A stretch of DNA of 64,000 bases. It comes from Clostridia bacterium. GTDB lineage: Bacteria; Bacillota; Clostridia; UBA1212; UBA1255. Under the pieces are notes generated by a model, which searched no databases, was not told where the DNA came from, and worked only from the letters and a program-made list of their open reading frames with translations. Shown here piece by piece: positions 42-14,346 of the stretch. The translations under genes and the position numbers were made by a program. The stretch's first letter is position 1. Every line of letters starts with the position of its first letter. Location of the stretch: NCBI GenBank assembly GCA_016287565.1, contig JAEFAM010000001.1, positions 137,344 through 201,343 of the forward strand. The letters run 5' to 3'.

Positions 42-127
42 GTGCCGCAAATCCACCAAAGCCATCAAGATTTGCGGCGCCCGTGGCGCGAATGAAACAA
101 GACCCGGCACCGCGGGCAAGGGGAGCT

Positions 128-175
128 TGTGGATTCGAACCTCGACCGGGTGCGAATAGTCCCTTAACATACCAA
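128..175 (+). repeat. Copy 1 of a conserved hairpin motif (GTGGATTYGAACC...GGGTG...GCGAAT...CCTTAAC). Its reverse complement carries a tRNA T-arm-like GGTTCGAATCC, but it does not fold as a tRNA.
   Basis: Close sequence similarity to 2461-2512. The ATTCG/CGAAT inverted repeat is visible. Attempted cloverleaf folding on both strands failed. Confidence 0.4.
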
Positions 176-192
176 AAGCGGGTGGCTATAAT
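164..192 (+). promoter_or_regulatory. Putative sigma-A promoter for CDS 219-677 (-35 TTAACA 164-169, 17-bp spacer, -10 TATAAT 187-192).
   Basis: Hexamers read directly from the sequence. Located about 27 nt upstream of the start codon. Confidence 0.45.
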
Positions 193-218: not shown

Positions 219-677
219 ATGATCGTGGAGCTCGGAAGGAAGATAGCGGACTTGAGAAACAACGTTAATATGTCTCAGCAGACGCTGGCCGAGCTTCTGT
301 TTGTTTCGCGAGACCTGGTCTCCAAGTGGGAGAACGGGAGCAGACGGCCGGATTATACGACGATCGAAAAGTTGGCGGCCATATTCCGGGTGAGCGCGGA
401 CGAAATTGTCAGCAAAAACGACGTGACTTTTAAAGAGCTTGCGGAATGCGTTGATGATGAAACTGAATTGACCGAAGAAGAACTTGCCGGACTGCTGAAT
501 GGATTTTTGGCGGGATTGACCGAAAAAGAAGCGGATATTTTCATGAAACGATATTATTTTTTGATGTCAGCCCCTGAGATCGCGTCGGAATACCGGCTCA
601 GGGATAATCACGTCCGCAGCATTCTGTCCAAGACCCGGAAGAAACTCAAACGATACGTCAGGGAGGCGCTGAACTGA
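219..677 (+). CDS. Small transcription factor: N-terminal XRE/Cro-type HTH fused to a sigma-70 region-4-like C-terminal domain.
   Basis: N-terminus MSQQTLAELLFVSRDLVSKWENGSRRP is the XRE HTH signature. C-terminus TEKEADIFMKRYYFLMSAPEIASEYRLRDNHVRSILSKTRKKLKRY is an ECF sigma region-4-like HTH. GGAGGG lies upstream. The stop overlaps the next start (TGAGATG). Confidence 0.8.
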   Translation: MIVELGRKIADLRNNVNMSQQTLAELLFVSRDLVSKWENGSRRPDYTTIEKLAAIFRVSADEIVSKNDVTFKELAECVDDETELTEEELAGLLNGFLAGLTEKEADIFMKRYYFLMSAPEIASEYRLRDNHVRSILSKTRKKLKRYVREALN

Positions 678-678
678 G

Positions 679-2352
679 ATGAACGGGGAAAAACTGTTTA
701 ATGCGATTACAAAAGTAAACAGTAAATTTATTGACCGCGCCGCTTCAGCCGGAGAAAACGGCATCAATACCGAAACGAAAAGCAGTGCATCCCGCAGTTG
801 GGGCAGCGGCAGGTTCAGGATGCGGCCGGCGTTGGCCGTGGAGGCATTAATCATTTTTATCGCCGTGATCGCGACGATTGTCGCCTTTGTCGCTAAAAAA
901 CAGCGTGGCGAGAGGGTCAATACGCAGCCGACAGATGGAGACGTCACGACGCTCGCCGCGGAAACCACGCCTACCCCCGCGCCGCCGGCCGTCGATCTGG
1001 TCAACGTCAGCCAGCTGATCGGAGACGACCAGCTGGGCAGGGGACTGCTATGGGGCTCAAGAGATAAACACCTGGCTGAGCTGTATGAAGCGTTGTTTGC
1101 CGCCGGCGAGGCGGGCAACACTGGGCCGCTTTATTACGGGTATCCCGTCCTGGATTACAGCCTGCTGGAAAGGATCACCTTTAACGAGGATTACGGATAC
1201 GACGTGAGCAATTTCTTTGAAGAGAAAACGCCGCGGGAAATCGAAGGGCTCGCAAGGGTCTATGTTTGTAAATATCACGGAGAGTTCGATATGATACTTG
1301 CCGGCGGATCGATCTATTATACGCTTGACCGGGCGGAACTAAAGGTCGGTTCGGCAGTACCGTTTGATTACGATAATAACGGCGTCAACGATATCCTGCT
1401 CATGTTTGGTCAGAGGCCATCGCCTTTTTCCGATTTCATAGAGAACGATCCGGATGCGCTTTACTGGAGAGGTTATTACGTACTGGATATGGCCAGGGGT
1501 GAACTGGTGGAGATCTGCTCTGTTACCGCGCCACTCGAACTGCCTTATATACTCAACAGCGGCGGAAAATGCTATATTTATCTGGATTCCAGCCAGATGG
1601 GCGGCGAAGTGAAGTTTGAGGGCGAGCGCTTTACTATCGGCGGAACAGAACCGGAGATATTCGTGAAAGCGATGTATGAAACGCGGCCTGAGCAATTGCC
1701 TTCGGATAAAATTACGGTAAACGCCACGCCCGCGCCCACTGCGGTGCCGCCGACGGAGAAACCGTATGAGGAGTTGCCGACGATGCCTCCGACGGAAGCA
1801 CCGACCGGCCCTACGCCCATCCCGTGGGATGATCCGAACAGCGTTCAGGGGATTGCCGACCACAATTTCTTTATCGAGGTCTGTCAAGAGGGCAGAAATA
1901 TTTCAGGACCGGATTTCAAAGAAGAGTTTTATTATTTTGACGGCAATGAAATGAAAACTTTCAAGTGGTCGCTCGATGCTCAAATCGAAGAAACAATGAT
2001 GCAGATCACTAGAGATATTAAAGAAAAACGTGAATTTTACGCGTATATCAGCGCGGGAAAAGATTTTTCGGTGGCCCACGTGACTGGCGGCGAGATAATT
2101 TCCGTAGATGTTTACGCGGTCAATAACGCGGAAAACTGGGAGCAACTTACGTTCGACCGGGTGGCGACCGGGCTCAGCGAGTCCGAGTTTATGGAGTATG
2201 CCGCGTCGTCAATGCCTTTCCGTCAGGGTTCAAACGGTGAGCTGCTGCCGTGCTTTGCTGTTTTCCACACTGGCATAAACGGTCAATTTATCTCCGCTGC
2301 CGGTGAGTACGAGCGCGTGATCAAGAGCAGTTTAGTAACTTTCGTGCCGTGA
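679..2352 (+). CDS. Membrane-anchored protein (single TM near residue 60, large extracytoplasmic domain with Pro/Thr-rich linkers). Translationally coupled to the regulator. Anti-sigma/sensor-like partner.
   Basis: TM segment ALAVEALIIFIAVIATIVAFVA. PT-rich linkers (TTPTPAPPA, TPAPTAVPPTEKP...PTEAPTGPTP). Start overlaps the upstream stop. Confidence 0.7.
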   Translation: MNGEKLFNAITKVNSKFIDRAASAGENGINTETKSSASRSWGSGRFRMRPALAVEALIIFIAVIATIVAFVAKKQRGERVNTQPTDGDVTTLAAETTPTPAPPAVDLVNVSQLIGDDQLGRGLLWGSRDKHLAELYEALFAAGEAGNTGPLYYGYPVLDYSLLERITFNEDYGYDVSNFFEEKTPREIEGLARVYVCKYHGEFDMILAGGSIYYTLDRAELKVGSAVPFDYDNNGVNDILLMFGQRPSPFSDFIENDPDALYWRGYYVLDMARGELVEICSVTAPLELPYILNSGGKCYIYLDSSQMGGEVKFEGERFTIGGTEPEIFVKAMYETRPEQLPSDKITVNATPAPTAVPPTEKPYEELPTMPPTEAPTGPTPIPWDDPNSVQGIADHNFFIEVCQEGRNISGPDFKEEFYYFDGNEMKTFKWSLDAQIEETMMQITRDIKEKREFYAYISAGKDFSVAHVTGGEIISVDVYAVNNAENWEQLTFDRVATGLSESEFMEYAASSMPFRQGSNGELLPCFAVFHTGINGQFISAAGEYERVIKSSLVTFVP

Positions 2353-2392: not shown

Positions 2393-2447
2393 AAACAGGG
2401 GACTGTTCAGCTGCCTGAAAACAGGTTTTTGAACAGCCCCTTTTTTG
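2393..2447 (+). terminator. Strong intrinsic terminator after the 679-2352 CDS.
   Basis: GGGGACTGTTCAG ... TTGAACAGCCCC stem of about 12 bp with one bulge, followed by TTTTTT. Confidence 0.7.
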
Positions 2448-2654: not shown

Positions 2655-4415
2655 ATGAAAAAGGGACACACGTCGACTCTCGTATCGACTCTCGTATTGG
2701 CGCTGACACTTGCTTTAACGCTTTTATTCAGCCTGTTGCCCGGCACGGCAGTAAATGCCGCGGAGGAGCAGAACGCCGAGCTGTTTCTGAGCGATCTGAC
2801 TCCGGTCAGCACCGCGCCGGTGGGAAAAGTTGACCCCAATACCGGGGCGCCGGTGGCAGGCTACACCGCGGATTCCGTCATCAACCGCTTTAACGGTTCA
2901 GGCAACACGCTTGTCCTCAACGGCCGGACGTACGAAAAAGGCATAGGCCTCGTTCCGTACGGAGACGATACGAGCGGGCAGGCAGGTTATATAAACGCAG
3001 AAGCCGTTTTCGACATCTCAGGTTACAGCAGCACGTATGACGTGTTTCTGGCAACGGTAGGAAGGCGCGACTGGCCGGAAGATCCGGGACCATACGTGTA
3101 CAGCATGGTCTGCCGGATATACGTCGACAACGTTCTCGCCGCGGAAAGTCCTTCACTCAATTTCGGAGAAGTGTACGAGGCGAAAGTCAGCATCAAGGGC
3201 GCCAAAGAGTTAAAACTGGTCACCACCTGCGGTACGGATACGTACCATTACGACTGTTCGGTATGGGGCAACGCACGGCTGGCCGCCGATAAATCATTCG
3301 CCCCGTCTTCCATAGAATTCACTTCGTTCCCGGCAAAGTCGATCTATGCCGTGGGCGAAGCGCTGAATATGAGCGGAGGCTCGATCACCGTAAAATATTC
3401 CGACGGCAGCACCGCGCAATTGCCTATGTTAGATACCATGTTGACCGGCTACGATCCGCAAACCACAGGCAAACAGCAGCTTGCGATCTCATATTTAGGC
3501 CATCAGGAAGAGTGGATCGTCACGGTGGCAGATCTGGTGTATCTGAGCGATATTGCCCCTAAATCCCTGAATATTCTGGAAAACGAAGTAGATACTTTCG
3601 GCGTCGATACGACCTCGAAGGGCAGCCCGATAATCATAAACGAGATCGATTACAAAAAAGGGTTCGGCGTGCATCCCTTTGAAGACGCTTCCGCGGAGAT
3701 AGAATATGACATCAGCGCGTACAGCGGCGAATACAATATCTTTTACGCGGTGGCGGGCAAGGATAAAACTACCGGCGAGCCCGGTTCCTTCGTGAAAGTG
3801 TACGTTTACGTTGACGGCGTCCAGGCGGCAGAATCGGACTATCTGACGTACGGCGACGAGTTCGTTATTGCCATAGATATTTCCGGCGGGTCAACGCTTC
3901 TGATTGAAGTTTCGCCGACGGAAGACGGCTATCACTGGGACAGCACCTGCTTCGGCGACGCCATGCTGCTAAAGTCGGCAATAGAGAAAAAGGAACTGGA
4001 ACTGCCGGAAAAACTGGAATATGAGAAAGGAAAACTGCTCAACCTCTCCGGCGGGGCGATCGTTTATCATTACGACAACGGTATCGTTTCCCGCGTTCCG
4101 CTGACGGACGAAATGGTGAAGGGATTTGACAAAGATACTGCCGGTACTCAGACGCTCACGGTGGAATACGGCGGCGAAACGGTTTCTTTCGAAGTGACCG
4201 TAAAAGAACCGGAGCCCGATCCCACCGCGCCGCCCACCGCCGAACCGAAAAAGACGGCAGATCCGTCCGAAGCCGGCAATACAGACGCGCCGGACCGCAG
4301 GACCGGCGGCAAAAACAGCTGGATCGCGCCTGTTATTATTGCAGCCGCCGCCATATGTGTTATAATTATTGCCGTCACAGTGATACTGAAAAAGAGCCGC
4401 AAACAGGGGAAATAA
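2655..4415 (+). CDS. Secreted, C-terminally membrane-anchored carbohydrate-binding surface protein with two NPCBM-like domains and Ig-like domains.
   Basis: Signal peptide MKKGHTSTLVSTLVLALTLALTLLFSLLPGTAVNA. Duplicated KGIGLVPYGDD.../KGFGVHPFED... modules typical of NPCBM. C-terminal hydrophobic anchor IAPVIIAAAAICVIIIAVTVILKKSRK. Strong RBS GGAGGA. Confidence 0.8.
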   Translation: MKKGHTSTLVSTLVLALTLALTLLFSLLPGTAVNAAEEQNAELFLSDLTPVSTAPVGKVDPNTGAPVAGYTADSVINRFNGSGNTLVLNGRTYEKGIGLVPYGDDTSGQAGYINAEAVFDISGYSSTYDVFLATVGRRDWPEDPGPYVYSMVCRIYVDNVLAAESPSLNFGEVYEAKVSIKGAKELKLVTTCGTDTYHYDCSVWGNARLAADKSFAPSSIEFTSFPAKSIYAVGEALNMSGGSITVKYSDGSTAQLPMLDTMLTGYDPQTTGKQQLAISYLGHQEEWIVTVADLVYLSDIAPKSLNILENEVDTFGVDTTSKGSPIIINEIDYKKGFGVHPFEDASAEIEYDISAYSGEYNIFYAVAGKDKTTGEPGSFVKVYVYVDGVQAAESDYLTYGDEFVIAIDISGGSTLLIEVSPTEDGYHWDSTCFGDAMLLKSAIEKKELELPEKLEYEKGKLLNLSGGAIVYHYDNGIVSRVPLTDEMVKGFDKDTAGTQTLTVEYGGETVSFEVTVKEPEPDPTAPPTAEPKKTADPSEAGNTDAPDRRTGGKNSWIAPVIIAAAAICVIIIAVTVILKKSRKQGK

Positions 4416-4417
4416 AA

Positions 4418-6541
4418 ATGGACAGATACAGATCAAAAAGGAGGATCATTTCTGTTATGCTGACGTCAACGCTAATTGCCGGCGCATTCGGCTGCGCCGA
4501 TTCGGGGAAAAGCGGGTCGAACGGTTATAAACCGTATTCCTATCAGTATTCGGACGTTTCCGCCGGACTGAATCCGTCGCAGGAAAAGAAAGAAGCGGTC
4601 GTCAACGAATATGAAGGCTTTCTCCGGGATCTTTCTGCGTTGCCGGTCTCTTTCTCCTTCGAAGGAAAAGAATACAAAGGCTTTAACGACAGTTTTAAAG
4701 AGATCGGCCGCGAGACCAGGGACGAAGGAGAGAAGATCGCCACCGATATCGTCCTCAAAAAAGGAGCGCTGGAGGTCAGGATAGATATGGCGGTCTATCC
4801 GAACTATTGCGCGTATGAATGGACGGTTTATTTTACAAATACAGGCAGCGACCGGATCGGTCCCCTTGAGGGAGTCAATTCTGCGGATATATCCTTCGGC
4901 GGAAAGGATCCGTATATTTTTGCCAACGCAGGCGATTATCAGCTGGATCCCGTAACAAAAGCAGAATCGGTAAGATATAATCCATACACCGTTGACCTTG
5001 CCGAGCAGCCTGTATTCGAACAGATCCAGCCTACGGGCCGTTCTTCCGAAGGCGGATTTCCGTATTATAACCTGCAGTACGGCGACGGCGGCGTGATCCT
5101 CGCGATCGGCTGGCCCGGTTCCTGGTTCTCGCGCTTCGATGCTTCTGCAGATGCCGTACGTTTTACCGCGGGACAGGCGCACCTGAACACGTATATCGAC
5201 CCGGGCGAAACGGTAAGGCTGCCGCTGATGGCGTTCGTGTATTACGAAGGCAGGGATATTGACGCGTCAATGAATCTCTGGAGGCACTGGTTTATCGACT
5301 GCAACATGCCGCGGATAAACGGTCAACTTATCAAGCCCATGACGTCCGCCACGTCCGCCACGTATATCAATCTGGCCAGGACTACGGAGAAGGAAGAGGT
5401 CAACGTCCTGAACAAGTACCTGAAAAACGATATTCCCCTCGATTCCTACTGGCTTGACGCCGGCTGGTACTTTAAAACGGGGACAGAGTCCGTTTCCGAA
5501 TGGCTCGAGACCGGCAACTGGAAAGTCGACATTGGCCGTTTCCCCACGGAATTCCAGGCTATTTCGGATATTACCGCGGCGCACGGCATGGACTTTATCG
5601 TGTGGTTCGAGCCGGAGCTGGTCCGGATAAGCAATTCCTGCCTTGACCCGGACGGAATGAAGCCCGAGTGGATCCTGGGCGAAGACGGCACCTGGCGTAT
5701 AGCGAATCTGGGCGAACCCGGGCTGGTAGACTGGGTGTTTGAAAGATTGTCCTCGATAATCGAAAAAGGCGGCGTGACCGTCTACCGTCAGGATTACGGC
5801 ACGGGAAATCCGCTGGGCAACTGGCTGGCGAACGACTCAGCGGATCGCGTCGGAATGACGGAAAACAAGTACGTTCAGGGCTATCTCGAACTTTGGGACA
5901 GGCTGCTTGAACGGTTTCCTAATATGTTTATCGACACCTGCGCTTCCGGCGGCGGGAGGCTCGATCTGGAAACGCTGAGGCGCTCAGTGCCCCTGCACAA
6001 AACCGACTACGATTACGGCGACGTCGACACCAAGCAGTCGATGCATCAGGCGCTTTTCCAGTGGATCCCGTATTTCGGCACGGTGACAACGATAGGACGG
6101 CTGGACTTTACGTCCTATTTCCTGCGGTCGAGCTACTGCTGCTTCCTGGCCGACGGCAACGACACCCGCTACAGCAAATTCGACTGGAGCGCACTGCGCC
6201 GGGCTTTCGATGAATTTCACAGCATAAAAGACTATTATTATTGCGATTATTATCCGCTTACCGAGTGGAATTACGGCCTTACCGAATGGCGTGGCTGGGA
6301 GTTTGTCGACCCCGGAACGCAGTCCGGCTTTATCCAGCTGTTCTGCCCGGAAAAATGCAAAACGCTTACGTACGTAGCGAAACTTTCGGGACTGAAGCCG
6401 GACGCCGTATATCTGTTGACCGACGCCGACGGAAACCTGACCTGCAGCAAGAGCGGCAGGGAACTGATGGAGAGCGGATTGACGGTATCGGTGCCCGAAA
6501 GCAGGACGTCGGTGTTTATAACGTTTAAAAAAGAAGGCTAA
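4418..6541 (+). CDS. Lipoprotein glycoside hydrolase, GH36-like (clan GH-D alpha-galactosidase/alpha-GalNAcase superfamily).
   Basis: Lipobox LIAGAFGC. YWLDAGWY, FIVWFEPE, YRQDYG (nucleophile-region-like) and CASGGGRLD (GH36 acid/base-region-like CSGGGGR) motifs. Separated from the upstream gene by 3 nt. Confidence 0.75.
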   Translation: MDRYRSKRRIISVMLTSTLIAGAFGCADSGKSGSNGYKPYSYQYSDVSAGLNPSQEKKEAVVNEYEGFLRDLSALPVSFSFEGKEYKGFNDSFKEIGRETRDEGEKIATDIVLKKGALEVRIDMAVYPNYCAYEWTVYFTNTGSDRIGPLEGVNSADISFGGKDPYIFANAGDYQLDPVTKAESVRYNPYTVDLAEQPVFEQIQPTGRSSEGGFPYYNLQYGDGGVILAIGWPGSWFSRFDASADAVRFTAGQAHLNTYIDPGETVRLPLMAFVYYEGRDIDASMNLWRHWFIDCNMPRINGQLIKPMTSATSATYINLARTTEKEEVNVLNKYLKNDIPLDSYWLDAGWYFKTGTESVSEWLETGNWKVDIGRFPTEFQAISDITAAHGMDFIVWFEPELVRISNSCLDPDGMKPEWILGEDGTWRIANLGEPGLVDWVFERLSSIIEKGGVTVYRQDYGTGNPLGNWLANDSADRVGMTENKYVQGYLELWDRLLERFPNMFIDTCASGGGRLDLETLRRSVPLHKTDYDYGDVDTKQSMHQALFQWIPYFGTVTTIGRLDFTSYFLRSSYCCFLADGNDTRYSKFDWSALRRAFDEFHSIKDYYYCDYYPLTEWNYGLTEWRGWEFVDPGTQSGFIQLFCPEKCKTLTYVAKLSGLKPDAVYLLTDADGNLTCSKSGRELMESGLTVSVPESRTSVFITFKKEG

Positions 6542-6587
6542 AGCGCGCCGAGAATTGACAATACCGGGGTTCTTTGATACTATTTTG

Positions 6588-6620
6588 CCGTTGCCGCCGA
6601 TGCAGACGGCAACGGTTTTT
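6588..6620 (+). terminator. Intrinsic terminator after the GH36-like gene.
   Basis: CCGTTGCCG...CGGCAACGG 9-bp stem followed by TTTTT. Confidence 0.65.
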
Positions 6621-6635
6621 GATGAGAGGAACAGC

Positions 6636-7721
6636 ATGAAAAGATCGACGATCTACGATATTGCCGAGAAGGCGGGCGTTTCGGTCACCACCGTAACACG
6701 CGCTTTTAAGAAGGACAGCAGTATTAAGCCGAAAACGAGAGAACGGATCCTTAAACTTGCGGAAGAGTTCAATTATACTCCGAGCATAAACGCCATCCGC
6801 CTCTCCAGGAAAGCGATCGTGATCGGCGCGATACTGGACACGTGCTCCGAAGAATTATATAAAGAATTAAAGAAGGGCCTGGAAGCTGCCCATAAAGAGC
6901 TGGCAGGGTTTAAGGTCGAACTGGAGATACGCAGCCTTCCGAAAGATATTGACGGTACGGATCTTTGCGAGAAATTTCTTGAAGAATTGCTCGATTCTGG
7001 AATACACGGACTTATATTGGCGCTTCAGGCATATTCGGAAAGTTTTATCCGGAAGCTCAACGACGCGGTAAACGAGGGGTTAAACCTGGTCCTGCTGATC
7101 AACGACTGCGACGTGATCCGCCAGTCGTTTCATATCCGTACGCAATCAATGCTTAGCGGGAGGGTCGCGGCCGAACTGCTCCGAAACAGTATCTCGGGCA
7201 ATGAAGTGGCAGTCTTCCTCGGCAACCGAAACGTTCCCGTTCACAAGGAGGCCATTGCGGGTTTTGAACAGGAAGCAAGAGCGTTAGGCCTCGTTGTCGC
7301 CGAAGTGTGCGATTTCAAAGAAAATCTGGAATTGTCCAGAAAGCAGGTCAAGGAAGTCGTCGGTAAACATCCCGGTCTCGGCGGCATATTCGTATCATCC
7401 GCCAATTCCGACGCCATTGTCGACGAGCTCGTGAAAAGCGGACTTGCGGGCGGCAGGATCAAGATCGTGACAACGGATCTGTATCCCCGGATAGCGGATC
7501 ATATCGAGAGCGGGGCAATATTGGCTACGATCTACAAAAACCCGTACCAGCAGGCCAAATCGTCTTTTGAATTGCTGTTCAAGCATATAAACGGTACGGC
7601 TGACGATCCGGATGACGTTTACGTCGTGCCTCAGGTCGTTATAAAGGGGAATCTGCCTGCTTATATGCGGGAGAGGGTTTCGCTTTTAGACGAATGCGGC
7701 GAACGCGGCGGAAATAATTGA
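6636..7721 (+). CDS. LacI-family transcriptional regulator.
   Basis: N-terminal MKRSTIYDIAEKAGVSVTTVTRAFK HTH_LacI signature followed by a periplasmic-binding-protein-like sugar-binding domain. The start was chosen downstream of the terminator. Confidence 0.85.
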   Translation: MKRSTIYDIAEKAGVSVTTVTRAFKKDSSIKPKTRERILKLAEEFNYTPSINAIRLSRKAIVIGAILDTCSEELYKELKKGLEAAHKELAGFKVELEIRSLPKDIDGTDLCEKFLEELLDSGIHGLILALQAYSESFIRKLNDAVNEGLNLVLLINDCDVIRQSFHIRTQSMLSGRVAAELLRNSISGNEVAVFLGNRNVPVHKEAIAGFEQEARALGLVVAEVCDFKENLELSRKQVKEVVGKHPGLGGIFVSSANSDAIVDELVKSGLAGGRIKIVTTDLYPRIADHIESGAILATIYKNPYQQAKSSFELLFKHINGTADDPDDVYVVPQVVIKGNLPAYMRERVSLLDECGERGGNN

Positions 7722-7944: not shown

Positions 7945-10900
7945 ATGGGCAGGAAACTCATTTCGTTCATTCTTGCATTACTGATATGCGTGAATATAAT
8001 GCCGGCGGGAGTCAACGCAGGTGACGGAGACGCACCCGGCGCGGGTACAGGAAATGTCCCAGATACAGGCACCTCGGGCGCAGGCAACACTTCCGTGATT
8101 AAAAACGGAGGCGAAGATATTTCAGTTGGCGACGCAAAGGCCGGAAGCTACGTCATACATTTTTACCCGCTGGGCGAGGGCGCTGCCGACTATTACGACA
8201 TGGTTGCCACGGTGTGGGACGCGGACGGCAACTCGATCGGCAGGTTCCCGATGGGCGCTTACGGTCTTGATTTGTGGGAGCCCAAGAAGGTCGACGCGTT
8301 TTTTGACGTTGACCCCGCGACGATAAAGATCAAGTGTATGTATAAGCCGGAAGGCGCGGAGACGTACGAGGAGATCACGTTCGAGCATGATTTTGAGGAG
8401 TTCTGCTACGACAGGATCGCGAGCGGCGAACTTCACGTTGTCCAGAACGAAACGGTGGATTTCTGCAAATATACGATTGAGTGCGTCAAACACGACGACG
8501 GGACACTGCCTGGAGTTTTATACGTTGACGCGGACGGTAATCCCCACTACCAGCCGAAATGCTACGGCTTGTCCAACCACGGGTTCACGAACATTCTGAC
8601 CGACTCCAACGAGGAATACGAAAACGACGGCTGGTACAGCCTGCGCGCGGACTACACCGGCGAGAACGGGTACAACGTTCCGATTTACGTAAACGGCGAC
8701 GTAAATCTCGTTCTGTGCGATGGTTCGGCCCTTGAGTCGAGTACGTTCATGCTGATGGATGGTTCGTCGCTCACGATCTGGCAGCAGAGAGAGGGCACGG
8801 GCAAGCTCACGATCGTCGGAGAAAAGGTAACCGGCATCGGGACGTCGAACCAGTACTATCCGGGGATCCAGGTTGAGACCGGCTCGAGCCTGACCATCAA
8901 CGGCGGTATTATCGACGTGACCGGACAGGATTACTGTGCGGGCATCGGAGGCAGATATGAGCATGGAAGCGGAGCCATTACGATCAACGCGGGAACGGTC
9001 ACCGTGAAAGGCGGCACGACTCACAACTCGACCAGCTGGACAGGCGGAGCTGCGATAGGCGGAGGCGGCCATGGCTCAAACGGCCCGATCGTTATTAACG
9101 GCGGAACGGTTACCGCGAAACCGGGTGCCCTGAGCTACGGCGCCGCTATAGGCAGCGGAGATGAAGCGGACGGCGGTCCGATCACCATCAACGGGGGAAC
9201 TGTAATAACGGATGCGACCATTGGCGCAGGTTCTCACAGCAAAAGCGGAGCAGTTACGATCAACGGCGGAACGGTGGAGGTTGACTCAAAAAGCATCGGC
9301 ATCGGCGGTTCCACGAACGGGCCGATAACCATCACGGGCGGAACAGTCAGAGTATATACAACGTATGTACGCACCGCTATAGGAGCGTCGGGTAGCCAGG
9401 AGGATCCGATCATCATCAGCGGCGGAACGGTCATTGCGAAATGCTCCTCGTCAGCCGGGGAATACTCGGGACAGGCGGCGGCGATCGGCGGCGGCGGCGG
9501 GGGCCACGCCGGCAGCGCGGGCGTTATCATAATCAGCGGAAAAGATACCAACGTTATCGCGATTTCCGAGGACGGCGCAGGTATCGGCAGCGGAGGCGTG
9601 GGACGCGACATGAACGGACAGCTCATGGGGGATCCTGCAGAATCTGCGGGGGACATAACAATTGAAGACGGATTCGTTTTCGCGATGTCCACAAAATCCG
9701 GCGCGGGTATCGGCGGCGGCAACGGCTGCAACGGCGGAAAGGTCACTATAAACGGCGGGTACGTTATCGCTTACGGCGGTTCGTCAGCCTACAACTGGTA
9801 CACGGACGGCGCCCAGGACACTGCGGGAAGCGGAACGCCCGGAGCGAGCGACGACCCGATTAACGCGTACATGGAGTCGTTTCTTTACGATCTGATCGCG
9901 GACGCGATCCTCGATCTCATTTTCTCGAATACGTACAGCGCGGCGGGAATCGGCGGCGGCAGCGGCGGAACGGGCGGAACCGTTAACGTAAACGGCGGTA
10001 TCGTCGTGGCGAGAGGCGGCACGAACGAGTGCAGCGCCATCGGCTGGGGCAAAGACGCTTCGACCGTTGCGCTGAGCATCTATAACGGCGCCAAGGTGAC
10101 CTACGGCCACTGGAACGACGGCAACGACAATATCAATATTGACGGCTGGACCACCGGCAACGACAAGGCGCAGAAGGCGCGCGACAACGCTTACGCGAAG
10201 ATCGAGCCCGGCCCGCTTACGGTTAGATTCGACGTGGGCGCACACGGCACGCCGCCGGAGACCCAGGTCGTCACAATGGGCCAGACGGCAACGAGACCCG
10301 ATGATCCTTCGGAGGAAGGGTTCATTTTCGGCGACTGGTACAAGACCAACGCGTTTGACGAGCTTTTCGATTTTGAAGAGCCGATCATGACGAACACGGT
10401 GGTCTACGGCAGATGGCTGACCGCTTTTGATCTAACAGTTAAAAAGATATGGCCTGAGGGTGCGGAGCAGGAGCTTCCCGCTTCGGTTACGGTTAATTAC
10501 ACGAATAAAATCTCGGAGGAGAAGACCGAGACAGGCGCTCTTACGCTGACGGCTGAAAACGGCTGGACGGCGAATATAACGCTCTCGGAGATCAGTATTC
10601 TGACGCTTACAGAGGAGCACGCGGAGGGTTTCGTGGCGGACGGGTGGACGCTCACGTGCGGTTTGGAGTCGCGCGACGTCACGGGTCCGGAAGGCGCTCA
10701 AGGCGGCGGAAAGGGAACGGCGGTGCTCAACCTTCGCGACGCTTCGGCGCTGAATCTTTCCGCGGAGACGCTTGCCGCCCTCAGAAACGGCGGCGGCACG
10801 GTCGCATTAAACAATAAAAAGGCGCGCATATATTCCGCAGAAAAGCGGTGGGATATTCCCCAGAACAACTATAAGCCGGCAACGGTCTCAGTTGTGCTGC

Positions 10901-13900
10901 AGCACAAGAACGGCGGTACCTGGGAGACGGTCGAGACCGTCATACTGAGCGAAGAAAAAGGCTGGAAAGCAGACTTTTCGCCGCTCCCCGAAACCGCGGG
11001 AATGGACGCGGACTACCGCGTTCGCGAGCTTGACCAGGATGGCAACCCCGTTCTTGACGCGGCGGACGAAGGCGGGGCGCAGCAACCTACCGTCACTTTC
11101 GGCATTGAGCCCTGGACAGACACTCATATGGATATGAGCTACAAGGTGTCGTACACTGACGGCGTCAGCGGGAAGACCATTATCAAAAACACCGCGGGTG
11201 AGTACTATTACGTAAAAATAATCTGGCAGAGCAATGACGGCGTCATAGACATGCCGGAGACTGTTACGGTGAACCTTTTCAAGACCGGTTCGTTCGTTGA
11301 CTACCTGACGCTGTCCGCCGCAAACAACTGGGAAGGCGTTTTTCAAGGACAGATGGACAGCGCGGATTACAGGGCACGCGAGGAAGATTGCGACGATAAG
11401 ACGGTGTTTGTTTCCGACCTCGACTCTGAGGCGTTCCCGGGCAGCGATTACGACAAGGCGGTTTATATAGTTGAAAAGGACGGAGCGCAGCGGATCTACG
11501 AATTCGACGTTACCGTGGAGGTTTCCGACAGAGGCCGCACCACCGTTATCACCAACACGAAATCGGGTGTCGTGTTCACGGCAAAGAAGGTCTGGAACAC
11601 GCCGGACGACAGCCTGTGGCCTCAGAGGATCTACAGAGTTTCTGCGGTGCTTCAGAAGCGCGTTACGCCGGAAGGCGAAGACGCGGAGCCGATGTGGCAG
11701 GACGTGGAAAGGATCGACCTCGGCGCGGACATCAGGTGGGAAGGCAGATTCCCCTCCGTGCGGATCGGTCAGGATTTTGACGAAGACAACTACCGGGTGC
11801 GCGAATTCATCAAAAACGTCGCTTACGGGTACTCGAACATTAAAATAGACGCGGGCACGGATGATCCGGAAGCAGAAGGAAGGCTGATGCTTTTGCCCGG
11901 CGACAGCGACAACACAGACCGCAAGCCGGCTCATTTCAGCTGCGAATACAGATATATCAACGGCAGTATGAGCGACTACGAGTACTCCTCGGCGGGGTTC
12001 ACGGTGTCGTACGAACGCGACGAAGACGGCACCTTTGTGATTAAGAACACTCAGGACGGTATCGTTACTGTCGAAAAGAAGTGGACAGACAGCGACGGAA
12101 AAGAGATAAAGGACGGAATTCCTGAAAGCGTTAAAGTCGTTCTTCAAAAGAAAGATAACGGCGAGTGGACGACCGTCGGAGAGGCCTCGGTCCTCAATAA
12201 AGAAAACAGCTGGAGGAAGTCCTTTGACCTGACCGGCGAGCTTGATCTGAACGACATTTCGGCGGACCTTGCAAACTACCGCGTGCGCGAACTTGACGAA
12301 GAGGGAAATATCGTTTATGACGCGGACGACTCCGACAAGCCGGAGGACGCAAAAGGGAAGATCTCGTTTAAGGTGAAGACCGGCAAAGACGACGAGACGG
12401 CGGACGTTTATTTCGCAGCGTCCTACAAGACCGGGAGCGCCGGCGGCAGCTACACCGTCACCAACAAGCTCCTGGGCGGCCGCTTCGTTATCGAGAAGGA
12501 ATGGGACGTCGACCTCGAGAAGACCGACTGCCCCGACAGCGTTGAAGCCGTGATCCAGGCGAAGAACGGCGACGAATGGGAGACGGTCAAACTGATCGAA
12601 CTGAAGGGGAAGGAAGAGGAGTCCGGGAATAATTCCGGGGACAGCTCAGGCAACAACTCCGGAGACGGGAACAACTCCGGAGGCAACTCTGAAAGCGACT
12701 CTGAAAACGAAGAATGGAAGACAGTCGTCTACCTCCCGCTCACCAAAAAAACCGACGACGGCAAGACCGTCAAGATCGAGTACCGCGTAAGAGAACTTCG
12801 CGAAGAGACAGCTCTGGACGAGCTTATGGGCCGTCTGAAGGATTTCATCAAGCAGGGCAAGGATAAGTACGATGAGTGGATCGAAACGCTCAAGACCGAC
12901 GGTTCGAAATATTACAACATGCTTCCCGACGCGATCAAAGAGGCGGCGAATCAGGGTTACGAGCAGCTTCTCGACAAGCTGAACGCCACGCCGAACGACC
13001 TTTACGACAAGCTGATGGAAAAGCTTGATGAGGTCACTTCCGGGAACCGCATCGTTTACGATAAGGACGACCCGGAGGTCAAGAAGGAGGACGGTAAAGG
13101 CGGAGACGACGATGACGGCGACGAAGACGAGAAGCCCGAGACGAACGCGGTCAGATTCCACGTCAAAGAGAAGAATTCGGTCGTTTCCGGCGGCTCTGTT
13201 GATGCGCACGTGACCAAATACAGCGTTGAATACAAGGAAGAGGACGGCACGTTCACGATCACGAACAAGGCGATCCTGGATATCGATCTGATCAAGCGCT
13301 GGCTGGCAATTGGCGTGGAGGAAGAGGATATGCCGGAATCCGCGTGGGTGGTGCTGCTTTTCAAGCCTAAAGAGGGCGCCGTTGACAAAGCGGGCGGCAT
13401 TGCATCGTCGGCAGGCGTTGACATCAGCGGTGTGCTCGACTTTGAGTTCCCGGTCATCAATCCGGAGGACGGCGGCAGGGACCCGGTGAGCATCATCAGC
13501 GAGCTGGTGACAGGCATTGACATTAATATTTTCAGCAGCCTCGAGATCGTTCCGAAGCTGGCGATCGACAAGGTCGACGAGGATTCGAACTGGACGAAAA
13601 CGTACACCGTCAGCAAGTACTACTGCGGAATTCCGATGGAATACAAGGGGGCCGAACTCTCGAGCGAGATCATAAGGCAGATCGTGAAGTACCTTACGGA
13701 CGGTGCCATCGACTCGCCGGTGTCCTACAACCCGTTCGATAACTATTTCAGCATTCCCACTCCTGCGATCCGGACGCTGGCGGGCATTACTGACCCGGGC
13801 ACTTTTCTCGACTTCTCGGCGCTCACGGGCAAATTCCTCGAAAAGGCCAAGTCGTTGACAATGGACGACATTAGAAACTTCGGGCCCGAGACGCTTCTCG

Positions 13901-14346
13901 ATGATTGGCACCTGATGGCCAACGTCATCAACGTGAAGATCGACTGGAACACAGATCCCGGTAAGGCGGGGCTTGTCATCAGCAAGATCGTGGAAGGCGA
14001 AACGGCAGGCAGCAACTTCATTTTTGAGATCGAAAAGGTCGGCGGACCAGGTGAGGAAGACGGCGAAGAAAACGAGCAGGCCGAACCGTTCAGGAAGCTC
14101 ACCGTCATCATCCCGGGCAGCGGCTCCGTAAAGATCGCAGACGTCGCCCCCGGAGTTTACCGCGTTACCGAGATCACGAGCTGGAGCTGGAGATACGACG
14201 CGACAAGTGAAGTTTCCGTAGAGGTCACGATCGAAGGCGAAGATGATGTGACGGTCACGTTCACGAACGCTTTGAACGGCAAAAACTGGCTGAATGCGGA
14301 GACGAGAGCTGACAACTTCTTCTGGCCACAAGAACCGGCCGGCTAG
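7945..14346 (+). CDS. Giant secreted cell-surface protein (2133 aa): signal peptide, about 12 parallel beta-helix-type repeats (x-ITINGGTV...GAGIGGG), a Listeria-Bacteroides (Flg_new) repeat, multiple CnaB/SpaA-like prealbumin-fold domains, and acidic low-complexity linkers.
   Basis: Signal peptide MGRKLISFILALLICVNIMPAGVNA. Repeated INGGTV/AAIGGGG units. GFIFGDWYKTNAFDELFDFEEPIMTNTVVYGRW. Several VxKKWxD...YRVRELDxDGN CnaB-like modules. SGNNSGD and D/E-rich stretches. No LPXTG or TM anchor at the C-terminus. Confidence 0.85.
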   Translation: MGRKLISFILALLICVNIMPAGVNAGDGDAPGAGTGNVPDTGTSGAGNTSVIKNGGEDISVGDAKAGSYVIHFYPLGEGAADYYDMVATVWDADGNSIGRFPMGAYGLDLWEPKKVDAFFDVDPATIKIKCMYKPEGAETYEEITFEHDFEEFCYDRIASGELHVVQNETVDFCKYTIECVKHDDGTLPGVLYVDADGNPHYQPKCYGLSNHGFTNILTDSNEEYENDGWYSLRADYTGENGYNVPIYVNGDVNLVLCDGSALESSTFMLMDGSSLTIWQQREGTGKLTIVGEKVTGIGTSNQYYPGIQVETGSSLTINGGIIDVTGQDYCAGIGGRYEHGSGAITINAGTVTVKGGTTHNSTSWTGGAAIGGGGHGSNGPIVINGGTVTAKPGALSYGAAIGSGDEADGGPITINGGTVITDATIGAGSHSKSGAVTINGGTVEVDSKSIGIGGSTNGPITITGGTVRVYTTYVRTAIGASGSQEDPIIISGGTVIAKCSSSAGEYSGQAAAIGGGGGGHAGSAGVIIISGKDTNVIAISEDGAGIGSGGVGRDMNGQLMGDPAESAGDITIEDGFVFAMSTKSGAGIGGGNGCNGGKVTINGGYVIAYGGSSAYNWYTDGAQDTAGSGTPGASDDPINAYMESFLYDLIADAILDLIFSNTYSAAGIGGGSGGTGGTVNVNGGIVVARGGTNECSAIGWGKDASTVALSIYNGAKVTYGHWNDGNDNINIDGWTTGNDKAQKARDNAYAKIEPGPLTVRFDVGAHGTPPETQVVTMGQTATRPDDPSEEGFIFGDWYKTNAFDELFDFEEPIMTNTVVYGRWLTAFDLTVKKIWPEGAEQELPASVTVNYTNKISEEKTETGALTLTAENGWTANITLSEISILTLTEEHAEGFVADGWTLTCGLESRDVTGPEGAQGGGKGTAVLNLRDASALNLSAETLAALRNGGGTVALNNKKARIYSAEKRWDIPQNNYKPATVSVVLQHKNGGTWETVETVILSEEKGWKADFSPLPETAGMDADYRVRELDQDGNPVLDAADEGGAQQPTVTFGIEPWTDTHMDMSYKVSYTDGVSGKTIIKNTAGEYYYVKIIWQSNDGVIDMPETVTVNLFKTGSFVDYLTLSAANNWEGVFQGQMDSADYRAREEDCDDKTVFVSDLDSEAFPGSDYDKAVYIVEKDGAQRIYEFDVTVEVSDRGRTTVITNTKSGVVFTAKKVWNTPDDSLWPQRIYRVSAVLQKRVTPEGEDAEPMWQDVERIDLGADIRWEGRFPSVRIGQDFDEDNYRVREFIKNVAYGYSNIKIDAGTDDPEAEGRLMLLPGDSDNTDRKPAHFSCEYRYINGSMSDYEYSSAGFTVSYERDEDGTFVIKNTQDGIVTVEKKWTDSDGKEIKDGIPESVKVVLQKKDNGEWTTVGEASVLNKENSWRKSFDLTGELDLNDISADLANYRVRELDEEGNIVYDADDSDKPEDAKGKISFKVKTGKDDETADVYFAASYKTGSAGGSYTVTNKLLGGRFVIEKEWDVDLEKTDCPDSVEAVIQAKNGDEWETVKLIELKGKEEESGNNSGDSSGNNSGDGNNSGGNSESDSENEEWKTVVYLPLTKKTDDGKTVKIEYRVRELREETALDELMGRLKDFIKQGKDKYDEWIETLKTDGSKYYNMLPDAIKEAANQGYEQLLDKLNATPNDLYDKLMEKLDEVTSGNRIVYDKDDPEVKKEDGKGGDDDDGDEDEKPETNAVRFHVKEKNSVVSGGSVDAHVTKYSVEYKEEDGTFTITNKAILDIDLIKRWLAIGVEEEDMPESAWVVLLFKPKEGAVDKAGGIASSAGVDISGVLDFEFPVINPEDGGRDPVSIISELVTGIDINIFSSLEIVPKLAIDKVDEDSNWTKTYTVSKYYCGIPMEYKGAELSSEIIRQIVKYLTDGAIDSPVSYNPFDNYFSIPTPAIRTLAGITDPGTFLDFSALTGKFLEKAKSLTMDDIRNFGPETLLDDWHLMANVINVKIDWNTDPGKAGLVISKIVEGETAGSNFIFEIEKVGGPGEEDGEENEQAEPFRKLTVIIPGSGSVKIADVAPGVYRVTEITSWSWRYDATSEVSVEVTIEGEDDVTVTFTNALNGKNWLNAETRADNFFWPQEPAG

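What the first reader, a model, noticed from the sequence alone, without database searches (positions are those of the whole stretch)
219..2352. XRE-HTH::sigma70-region-4 fusion regulator translationally coupled to a large membrane-anchored partner
The 152-aa protein joins a Cro/C1-type HTH (SQQTLAELLFVSRDLVSKWENG) to an ECF-type sigma region 4 (FMKRYYFLMSAPEIASEYRLRDNHVRSILSKTRKKL). It lacks sigma region 2, so it cannot be a canonical sigma factor. It overlaps (TGAGATG) a 557-aa single-pass membrane protein with a short cytoplasmic N-terminus and a PT-linker-rich extracytoplasmic domain, which is an anti-sigma/sensor-like topology. The pair sits immediately upstream of the NPCBM/GH36-like glycan-utilisation operon and may be its dedicated sensor-regulator module.
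Basis: partly seen in the sequence, partly recalled or inferred. Interest (0 to 1): 0.65.

Follow-up and report, generated by a model that had tools for sequence, protein, structure and literature searches.

The report
XRE–sigma4 regulator with membrane partner
A small DNA-binding protein made of a phage-repressor-type domain fused to the tail of a sigma factor is always encoded with a single-pass membrane protein; the pair belongs to a large, apparently undescribed family of candidate signalling modules in uncultured gut and rumen Clostridia, and nothing ties it to the neighbouring sugar-degradation genes.

Summary
ORF 219-677 (more likely starting at GTG 225) carries HTH_3 (E 1e-13) and Sigma70_r4 (E 9e-9, above Pfam's cut-off) and has no region 2. 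ORF 679-2352 follows after a 1-nt gap, not an overlap. It is a single-pass membrane protein, inferred N-in.

The pair is one member of a large unnamed family: at least 3277 protein clusters, all from metagenome-assembled Clostridia.
- Nearly all of about 82 related loci have a coupled partner gene. It encodes a conserved N-terminal amphipathic motif (MNGxxLFxAIxxIDExLIDR), a basic patch, one TM helix and a hypervariable ectodomain.
- Nearly every operon carries an 18-nt bipartite site (GGGTGCGTTTTGTCCCTT; window 148-165) that overlaps the -35 of a sigma-A-type promoter.
- Residue 32 of the XRE recognition helix (D/E) switches together with site base 13 (C/A) in about 11 independent lineages. 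The site is therefore very probably the regulator's own operator.

I infer an ECF-like module: a two-HTH autoregulator held by a membrane anti-regulator.

The proposed link to the NPCBM/GH36 operon is not supported. A strong terminator and a separate promoter lie between them, the operon has its own LacI-type gene, it has no operator, and the flanks differ in a 93%-identical relative.

This is a new variant of a known kind. Interest 0.6.

The parts
148..165 (+). Bipartite operator GGGTGCGAATAGTCCCTT. The distal half (148-154, GGGTGCG) is probably read by the sigma-4 HTH. The proximal half (158-165, AGTCCCTT) is read by the XRE HTH. Its last two T are the first two bases of the -35 hexamer.
   Evidence: The PWM built from 82 family promoter sites scores this site 21.1, the only site in the 64-kb window scoring above 10.4. 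D32 pairs with C13 here, which fits the family-wide covariation.
164..192 (+). Sigma-A-type core promoter: -35 TTAACA (164-169), 17-nt spacer, -10 TATAAT (187-192).
   Evidence: The promoter scan gives 11 of 12 matches. The same geometry is conserved in 81 family promoters.
219..677 (+). Regulator gene; the probable true start is GTG 225 (150 aa). The XRE/Cro-C1 HTH is residues 9-63 (nt 243-407). A conserved linker helix carrying E-L-x-x-C is residues 66-77 (nt 414-449). The sigma-70 region 4 HTH is residues 97-144 (nt 507-650).
   Evidence: Pfam and NCBIfam. Family alignment with invariant E73, L74 and C77. AF2 model with pLDDT 90 and pTM 0.72. PDB searches by fold and by sequence match the two halves separately.
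679..2352 (+). Partner gene: 557-aa single-pass membrane protein, inferred N-in. It starts 1 nt after the regulator's stop codon.
   Evidence: ORF. The coupled arrangement is conserved in nearly all of about 82 loci. Topology.
679..744 (+). Cytoplasmic N-terminal amphipathic motif of the partner (MNGEKLFNAITKVNSKFIDRAA), proposed to bind the regulator.
   Evidence: The motif is conserved in 78 of 84 distinct partner N-termini. In about 610 kb it was found only downstream of these regulators.
826..894 (+). Transmembrane helix of the partner, about residues 50-72.
   Evidence: Hydropathy. AF2 places a helix at residues 53-72.
985..2349 (+). Extracytoplasmic part of the partner: two beta-rich domains (residues ~103-345 and ~385-557) joined by a Pro/Thr linker (residues ~349-385, nt 1723-1833). 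A first Pro/Thr linker (residues ~83-103, nt 925-987) lies between the TM helix and this span.
   Evidence: AF2 gives pLDDT of about 70-90 in the two domains and below 50 in most of each linker. Only 13 relatives exist among 1.84 billion representatives, and they match the two domains separately. Nothing in the PDB matches below E 0.01.
2398..2446 (+). Intrinsic terminator that closes the two-gene operon: a GC-rich hairpin followed by U6.
   Evidence: Fold energy -28.3 kcal/mol, z-score -6.4, and 0 of 200 shuffles fold as well.

Best explanation
The two genes form a self-contained transmembrane signalling module that is built like an ECF sigma/anti-sigma pair but is not one.

The regulator is a small protein with two different helix-turn-helix domains and probably binds as a monomer. 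It binds an asymmetric 18-bp operator at about -51 to -34 of its own sigma-A-type promoter. The N-terminal XRE domain reads the promoter-proximal half (TGTCCCTT), which abuts and overlaps the -35. The C-terminal sigma-4 domain reads the distal half (GGGTGCG).

The partner is made in coupled amounts. It sits in the membrane with about 50 residues in the cytoplasm. I infer that its conserved N-terminal amphipathic helix binds the regulator and keeps it off the DNA, and that an event at the variable ectodomain (ligand binding or proteolysis) releases it.

My preferred reading is that the released regulator activates its own promoter and a few others from a class-II-like position (positive feedback). 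The sign of regulation is the weakest step.

Status of each step:
- Shown: the domain composition, the conserved gene pairing, the conserved operator, and the protein-DNA covariation.
- Inferred: physical binding of partner to regulator, signal-dependent release, and activation rather than repression.
For: 1. The fusion is real.
2. The family is large. At least 3277 clusters score E <= 1e-10, and the top 120 are all about 150 aa with HTH_3 plus Sigma70_r4.
3. Nearly all of about 82 regulator genes have a partner gene starting -34 to +5 nt from the regulator's stop, mostly as an ATGA overlap. Each partner has one TM helix starting at residue 26-55. The ectodomains (partner length 141-1095 aa) share about 8% column identity.
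4. The partner N-terminal motif has hydrophobic positions spaced i, i+1, i+4, i+7, i+11. In about 610 kb it occurs only next to these regulators.
5. Ectodomains are swapped like sensor domains. Of 76 partners, 6 carry Serpin, 3 LRR_5 and 2 SBP_bac_5, and most of the rest have no Pfam family. Several genomes carry 2-3 paralogous modules.
6. The 18-nt motif sits in fixed register, 21 nt upstream of a TATAAT, with about 2 bits of information at four positions, in 80 promoters. Of 83 sites scoring 14 bits or more in 550 kb, 78 are the autoregulatory one. Of 10 exact consensus matches in the metagenome collection, 9 precede a regulator gene.
7. Residue 32 (VSR[D/E]LVSKWE) covaries with operator base 13: D-C 46, E-A 24, E-C 2, D-A 0. 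On a tree the counts are 13 and 12 changes separately but only 14 for the combined state, so about 11 are coupled. It is by far the top pair among all residue-by-base pairs, 0.85 against 0.54 for the next.
8. The next-best pairs link H131 and N130, at the start of the sigma-4 recognition helix, to distal bases 0 and 6. Variants of the distal half-site track variants of that helix.
9. The same operator-promoter architecture precedes two other genes: a dockerin/M28 peptidase gene in L086 and L082, and a flavodiiron-like gene in L095.
10. LytTR regulatory systems show the same logic: a regulator plus a transmembrane inhibitor, with autoregulatory sites just upstream of the -35 and positive feedback (PMC6193735).
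Against: - No direct evidence shows that the partner binds the regulator.
- No known anti-sigma domain is detectable in the partner.
- The core promoter is already near consensus. The -10 matches 6 of 6 in 50 of 81 promoters, and 61 of 81 reach 9 or more of 12. That fits repression from a -35-overlapping operator at least as well as activation.
- The sigma-4/distal-half assignment rests on clade-level covariation, which shared ancestry could produce.
- Monomeric binding is inferred only from the asymmetry of the site.
Confidence: 0.55

Rival explanations
1. The regulator is a plain autorepressor and the membrane protein is cargo. The regulator simply sets the expression of a variable surface protein encoded in the same operon. 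The conserved N-terminal motif serves membrane insertion or sorting, not regulator binding.
For: The core promoter is near consensus and the operator overlaps the -35, which is typical of repression. The ectodomains look like surface proteins: LRR_5, serpin, solute-binding. There is no detectable anti-sigma domain and no demonstrated contact.
Against: The motif lies at the extreme N-terminus, upstream of a basic patch and the TM helix, so it is predicted to be cytoplasmic. It is an acidic amphipathic helix, not a signal peptide. In about 610 kb it was found only beside these regulators. Tight translational coupling, usually an ATGA overlap, is conserved across regulators as little as 41% identical even though the ectodomains are unrelated.
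Confidence: 0.2
2. The pair is the dedicated sensor-regulator of the adjacent NPCBM/GH36 glycan operon at 2655-6541.
For: The two units are adjacent and on the same strand. A degenerate copy of the sequence flanking the operator (GTGGATTTGAACC...GGGTG, 2461-2480) lies about 90 nt upstream of the operon's -35.
Against: A strong terminator and an independent consensus promoter lie between them. The operon has its own LacI-type gene. No operator-like site scores above 10.4 bits outside 148-165. The neighbourhood is not conserved, even in the 93%-identical relative.
Confidence: 0.07
3. The protein has a sigma-like function. Its sigma-4 domain docks on the RNA polymerase beta-flap in place of region 4 of the housekeeping sigma, or it pairs with a separately encoded region-2 protein, to form a hybrid holoenzyme.
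For: The C-terminal half is homologous to the linker plus region 4 of ECF sigmas. The operator keeps a rigid register with a sigma-A -10 at the autoregulatory promoters and at other targets.
Against: The half-site that tracks the sigma-4 helix lies at about -50 to -45, 12-15 bp upstream of where flap-bound region 4 sits. The XRE domain, not sigma-4, occupies the -35-proximal position. No third conserved gene accompanies the pair.
Confidence: 0.07
4. The pair is a module of a mobile element or prophage: an immunity-type repressor with a membrane exclusion protein.
For: The XRE half is most similar to RstR, ImmR and phage-repressor models. The module sits in different contexts in close relatives. 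In the window it is flanked by a 17-nt inverted repeat, 121-137 and 2483-2499.
Against: No integrase, transposase or phage genes lie beside it in any context examined. PADLOC and PHROGs give only domain-level hits, and none for the partner. The family shows thousands of variants, several paralogs per genome and sensor-like ectodomain swapping.
Confidence: 0.05

Closest known systems
ECF (group IV) sigma factor with a co-transcribed single-pass membrane anti-sigma factor, e.g. SigW/RsiW or SigE/RseA (from general knowledge).
   Same: The C-terminal half is homologous to the ECF linker plus region 4. The partner gene lies downstream and is translationally coupled. The partner is a single-pass membrane protein (inferred N-in) with a variable extracytoplasmic domain. 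The operon promoter carries an autoregulatory site. Several paralogous modules occur per genome.
   Different: Region 2 is replaced by an XRE HTH, so the protein cannot bind the -10 or melt DNA. The promoter has a housekeeping TATAAT -10. The cytoplasmic part of the partner is a motif of about 22 residues with no recognisable anti-sigma domain.
LytTR regulatory systems, HdrRM and BrsRM of Streptococcus mutans (PMC6193735).
   Same: A two-gene operon encodes a DNA-binding regulator and a transmembrane inhibitor. The autoregulatory site lies immediately upstream of the -35. The system is neither a two-component system nor an ECF system.
   Different: The DNA-binding domain is unrelated (LytTR against XRE plus sigma-4). 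LRS sites are direct repeats, whereas this site is one asymmetric bipartite site. The membrane partners are unrelated.
Lambda cI at OR2/PRM and restriction-modification controller C-proteins such as C.AhdI and C.BclI (from general knowledge; the C-proteins are the best structural matches to the XRE half).
   Same: An XRE-type HTH binds a site overlapping the first bases of the -35 of its own promoter, centred near -42. The XRE half superposes on C.AhdI and C.BclI at about 1 A rmsd over about 60 residues.
   Different: Those proteins are homodimers on palindromic operators. Here the second DNA-reading head is a sigma-4 domain within the same chain, and a membrane partner is attached to the system.
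Short class II anti-sigma domains, e.g. CnrY with CnrH (from memory; not tested here).
   Same: A very short cytoplasmic helical segment of a small membrane protein is enough to hold its sigma factor.
   Different: No sequence similarity was detected, and CnrY embraces both region 2 and region 4, whereas region 2 is absent here.

Membership tests
ECF (group IV) sigma-70 factors | A sigma-70 region 2 domain, which binds core polymerase and recognises the -10. | tested here: not met
   No Sigma70_r2 hit at E <= 1. Residues 1-68 are an XRE HTH. TIGR02937 aligns only model positions 90-164 of 165. The N-terminal half superposes on C.AhdI and ImmR at about 1 A rmsd.
ECF (group IV) sigma-70 factors | A sigma-70 region 4 domain. 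| tested here: met
   Sigma70_r4 scores 35.2 bits against a cut-off of 24.1, and r4_2 scores 26.4 against 25.7. The family profile hits region 4 of SigF, SigA and SigL in the PDB.
ECF (group IV) sigma-70 factors | Its own promoter has ECF-type -35 and -10 elements (AAC ... CGT type). | tested here: not met
   The -10 is TATAAT in 50 of 81 promoters and matches 5 of 6 in 26 more, with a TTGACA-like -35 at a spacing of 16-17 nt.
XRE / Cro-C1 transcription factors | An HTH_3-type helix-turn-helix domain. | tested here: met
   HTH_3 E 1.1e-13 and HTH_31 E 1.7e-12. PDB matches at E 1e-10 to 1e-5.
XRE / Cro-C1 transcription factors | A homodimer on a palindromic operator. This is typical of the family rather than strictly defining. 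| tested here: not met
   The conserved site is asymmetric, GNTGCG-N4-GTCCCTT, with no dyad symmetry in 80 promoters. The oligomeric state itself cannot be tested here.
Membrane anti-sigma factors (ASD/zf-HC2, RsgI_N and similar) | A recognisable cytoplasmic anti-sigma domain. | tested here: not met
   The window protein and 76 partners have no Pfam or NCBIfam anti-sigma family. The conserved cytoplasmic part is only about 22 residues.
Membrane anti-sigma factors (ASD/zf-HC2, RsgI_N and similar) | A single-pass N-in topology, encoded immediately downstream of its target and coupled to it. | tested here: met
   One TM helix in 73 of 73 partners. The positive-inside rule holds in 66 of 73. The start lies -34 to +5 nt from the regulator's stop in nearly all of about 82 loci.
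Membrane anti-sigma factors (ASD/zf-HC2, RsgI_N and similar) | Physical binding and inhibition of the cognate factor. | not testable with these tools
LytTR regulatory systems | A LytTR DNA-binding domain in the regulator. | tested here: not met
   No LytTR hit. The domains are HTH_3 and Sigma70_r4.
LytTR regulatory systems | A conserved autoregulatory site immediately upstream of the -35 of the operon promoter. | tested here: met
   The operator lies at about -51 to -34 in 80 promoters. Compare PMC6193735.

The most novel reading that the evidence does not exclude
The XRE-sigma4 regulators and their motif-bearing membrane partners form a previously unrecognised class of transmembrane signalling system. 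It would have arisen from ECF sigma/anti-sigma pairs when region 2 was replaced by a second DNA-reading head. The descendants would be ordinary transcription factors that work with the housekeeping holoenzyme yet keep the membrane anti-factor logic. The class has thousands of members in gut and rumen Clostridia, with sensor ectodomains that include membrane-anchored serpins.
Probability: 0.45. Interest if true: 0.75.

Novelty: new variant of a known kind. Interest (0 to 1): 0.6.

Why it matters
If the model is right, uncultured fibre-degrading Clostridia carry a large, unannotated layer of extracytoplasmic sensing. Automated annotation currently files these proteins as 'helix-turn-helix domain-containing protein'.

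The family also offers an unusually clean case for studying DNA recognition. A two-headed monomer has one residue (D/E32) and one base (C/A13) that switch together about eleven times, which gives a directly testable recognition rule.

It also documents one way a sigma factor can be converted into a conventional transcription factor.

For annotating this window, the practical result is negative. The pair should not be described as the regulator of the neighbouring glycan operon.

Tried and rejected
No complex model exists.
The 42-residue version returned only 42 candidates and 5 weak fragments. I therefore could not test whether the motif also accompanies genuine ECF sigmas.
3. Tree-based co-change analysis between partner residues 1-24 and the regulator was dominated by hypervariable positions. 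The only suggestive pair was partner position 10 with regulator residue 109. I treat it as inconclusive.
4. No natural regulator-partner fusion exists. The longer database entries (174-221 aa) are over-extended N-termini that read through the promoter.
5. The tRNA-like strings GTGGATTCGAACC upstream and downstream are not tRNA genes or Rfam families.
6. There is no paralog of either gene elsewhere in the window.
8. Four literature searches for this fusion found nothing relevant. A fifth search, for LytTR regulatory systems, led to PMC6193735 as the closest analogue.
9. PADLOC and PHROGs gave only domain-level hits.
Full report
**The observation**

ORF 219-677 (152 aa) and ORF 679-2352 (557 aa) are present on the + strand.

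The first protein has these matches:
- Pfam HTH_3, residues 9-63, E 1.1e-13.
- Sigma70_r4, residues 97-144, E 8.6e-9, 35.2 bits against a cut-off of 24.1.
- Sigma70_r4_2, just above its cut-off.
- No region-2 hit at all.
- NCBIfam's general ECF model aligns only its last 75 positions to residues 73-146.

A family profile searched against PDB sequences hits XRE proteins (ImmR, SinR, C.BclI) with its first 68 positions. It hits sigma region 4 (SigF, SigA, SigL) with positions 71-147. It never hits both in one chain.

An AF2 model is confident (pLDDT 90, pTM 0.72). Foldseek finds no full-length structural match (TM-score 0.41 or less). The N-terminal half superposes on C.AhdI, C.BclI and ImmR at about 1 A rmsd. 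The fusion is therefore real.

Two details need correcting:
- The stop TGA (675-677) and the ATG (679-681) are separated by one base, so the genes do not overlap.
- The likely start is GTG 225. It lies 9 nt after GGAGG at 211-215, and the rest of the family begins at that position.

The second protein has no Pfam or NCBIfam family. It has one hydrophobic helix at about residues 50-72. It has two Pro/Thr-rich disordered linkers and two beta-rich ectodomains, at about residues 103-345 and 385-557. Only 13 relatives exist among 1.84 billion representative proteins, and no PDB fold matches below E 0.01.

**A large family in which the gene pair is the conserved unit**

- A single-sequence search found 128 relatives of about 150 aa, all with HTH_3 plus Sigma70_r4.
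- A profile of 29 diverse members found 3277 clusters at E <= 1e-10 among the 8000 candidates scored. The top 120 are all full length and carry only generic names. All come from metagenome-assembled Clostridia.
- A scan of one genome per species returned 105 relatives, of which 80 loci were fetched. All are from uncultured rumen or gut Clostridia, and several genomes carry two or three copies.

Nearly all of about 82 regulator copies are followed by a + strand ORF that starts between -34 and +5 nt of the regulator's stop, usually as an ATGA overlap.

These partners are 141-1095 aa long and have exactly one hydrophobic segment, starting at residue 26-55. The net charge is +3.9 before that segment and +0.4 after it.

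Their ectodomains are essentially unrelated, with a mean column identity of 8%. Six carry Serpin (one clade), three LRR_5 and two SBP_bac_5. Most of the rest have no Pfam family.

What the partners share is the first 22 or so residues: M-[NTK]-G-x-x-L-[FY]-[ND]-A-[ILF]-x-x-I-D-[ED]-x-[LY]-[IL]-[DE]-[RE]. This is an acidic amphipathic helix pattern. In about 610 kb of fetched DNA plus the window, it was found only downstream of these regulators.

**A conserved operator in the operon's own promoter**

I aligned the 125 nt upstream of 82 non-redundant regulator genes. This shows an 18-nt motif, G-N-[TA]-[GA]-C-[GA]-T-T-[TC]-T-G-T-[CA]-C-C-T-T.
- Four positions carry about 2 bits of information.
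- The motif sits in fixed register, 21 nt upstream of a TATAAT.
- Its last two T are the first bases of a TTGACA-like -35 hexamer.

The site therefore spans about -51 to -34.

In the window it is GGGTGCGAATAGTCCCTT at 148-165, followed by TTAACA, a 17-nt spacer and TATAAT at 164-192.

Of 83 sites scoring 14 bits or more in 550 kb of related loci, 78 are this autoregulatory site. Of ten exact matches to the 21-nt consensus in the metagenome collection, nine precede a regulator gene.

The exceptions are informative, because the same operator-promoter unit precedes two other genes:
- A Dockerin_1 plus Peptidase_M28 gene in L086 and L082.
- A flavodiiron-like gene in L095, whose fragment matches the N-terminus of flavorubredoxin models at E 8e-18.

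The regulon therefore need not be limited to the operon itself.

**Evidence that the regulator reads this site, and how**

Residue 32, at the start of the XRE recognition helix (VSR[D/E]LVSKWE), covaries with operator base 13 (GT[C/A]CC). The counts are D with C 46 times, E with A 24 times, E with C twice, and D with A never.

On a neighbour-joining tree built without that column, D/E needs 13 changes and C/A needs 12. The combined state needs only 14, so about 11 switches happened together.

Among all residue-by-base pairs this one stands alone. Its shared-change fraction is 0.85, against 0.54 for the next pair.

Acidic side chains accept hydrogen bonds from the amino groups of C and A. That makes the pairing chemically plausible; this point rests on general knowledge.

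The next-ranked pairs link H131 and N130, at the start of the sigma-4 recognition helix, with distal bases 0 and 6. Variants of the distal half-site track variants of that helix:
- GGTGCG with NHVRSILSK.
- GAAACA with ANVRLILHR.
- GATAC with xYVRTILMR.
- GTAACA with GYVRKKLSE.

I conclude with good confidence that the XRE head reads the promoter-proximal half. With less confidence, because shared ancestry could give the same pattern, I conclude that the sigma-4 head reads the distal half. The site is asymmetric, which fits one protein with two different heads.

**Mechanism**

The following features together match the logic of ECF sigma/anti-sigma pairs and of LytTR regulatory systems (PMC6193735):
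- Coupled synthesis of the two proteins.
- A short, conserved cytoplasmic helix on a single-pass membrane protein.
- Swapped ectodomains.
- Paralogous expansion.
- An autoregulatory promoter.

I therefore propose that the partner's N-terminal helix holds the regulator at the membrane, and that an extracytoplasmic event releases it. That contact is inferred, not shown.

The sign of regulation is open.
- For activation: the site geometry, centred near -42 and overlapping the -35 by 2 bp with an XRE head next to region 4 of the housekeeping sigma, is that of lambda cI at PRM and of class II activators (general knowledge). The same register recurs at other target genes, and LRS systems use positive feedback.
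- For repression: the core promoter is already strong. The -10 matches 6 of 6 in 50 of 81 promoters, and 61 of 81 reach 9 or more of 12.

I lean slightly towards activation.

**The link with the glycan operon**

Several results argue against it:
- A strong terminator follows the partner gene (2398-2446, -28.3 kcal/mol, z -6.4).
- The NPCBM gene has its own 11-of-12 promoter at 2571-2599.
- A LacI-type regulator gene sits at 6555-7721.
- No second operator exists in the 64-kb window.
- Relatives sit next to unrelated genes.
- In the 93%-identical relative L087, nucleotide homology begins exactly at the operator and ends about 45 nt after the partner's stop. Its upstream genes are GH95 and a Schlafen/AlbA_2-type gene.

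The module, from operator to stop codon, behaves as a discrete cassette.

**Comparison with known systems, and novelty**

It is not an ECF sigma factor, because region 2 is absent and the promoter is of the housekeeping type. It is not a typical XRE dimer, because the operator is asymmetric. The partner has no recognisable anti-sigma domain.

It works like, but is not a member of, the ECF/anti-sigma and LRS classes.

Four literature searches found no description of an XRE-sigma4 fusion or of this partner motif. The held library is incomplete, so prior description cannot be excluded.

I rate it a new variant of a known kind, with interest 0.6.

Noticed in passing
window 121-137 and 2483-2499; also 130-142 and 2461-2473: A 17-nt inverted repeat (16 of 17 complementary, GGGAGCTTGTGGATTCG / CGAATCCACAATCTCCC) brackets the whole module. 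I estimate roughly 0.01 such pairs by chance in 2.7 kb. A tRNA-T-arm-like string, GTGGATT[CT]GAACC followed by GGGTG, occurs on both sides. ARAGORN and Rfam find nothing there. It may be a remnant of a duplicated promoter region or of an insertion event.
   Followed up: partly
window ~149 to ~2397, against L087 4390-6650: In a 93%-identical relative, the DNA homology starts exactly at the operator and stops about 45 nt after the partner's stop codon. The flanks are unrelated, so the module looks like a relocatable cassette.
   Followed up: partly
L034, L041, L042, L043, L047 (partner genes): One clade of partners, from Hadza gut MAGs, carries a full Serpin domain as its ectodomain (E about 1e-65; verified for L034, L041 and L047). 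A membrane-anchored serpin coupled to a transcription regulator suggests sensing of extracellular proteases.
   Followed up: partly
L086 3883-3900 (-), L082 5633-5700, L095 4300-4366: The family operator, with its promoter, also precedes genes other than the regulator. These are a Dockerin_1 plus Peptidase_M28 gene (divergent in L086, downstream in L082, with an inverted second site) and a flavodiiron-like gene (L095).
   Followed up: partly
L048, L050, L055, L061: Nearly identical modules, in both promoter and partner N-terminus, lie on long contigs of bins labelled Paludibacteraceae, Phascolarctobacterium, Butyricicoccaceae and Muribaculaceae, all from one study. This points to mislabelled bins or recent horizontal transfer.
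   Followed up: no
L067 (two modules) and L074 (two modules): Paralogous modules on the same contig differ in the distal half-site of the operator and in the partner N-terminal motif, which would insulate them from each other. Other paralog pairs, such as L004/L023, have nearly the same operator.
   Followed up: no
window 4355-6541: The GH36-like (Melibiase) ORF overlaps the end of the NPCBM gene if it starts at 4355. A start at about 4418 (MDRYRSKRRIISVMLTSTLIAGAFGC) would give a lipoprotein-type signal peptide and remove the overlap.
   Followed up: no
window 2673-2696: A perfect tandem 12-nt duplication (TCGACTCTCGTA twice) lies inside the signal-peptide region of the NPCBM/Big_3 protein, giving the repeated peptide STLVSTLV.
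   Followed up: no
window 7945-14346: A 2133-aa ORF with Gly-rich beta-helix-like repeats and many repeated modules, probably a giant surface protein, follows the LacI-type gene. I did not examine it.
   Followed up: no
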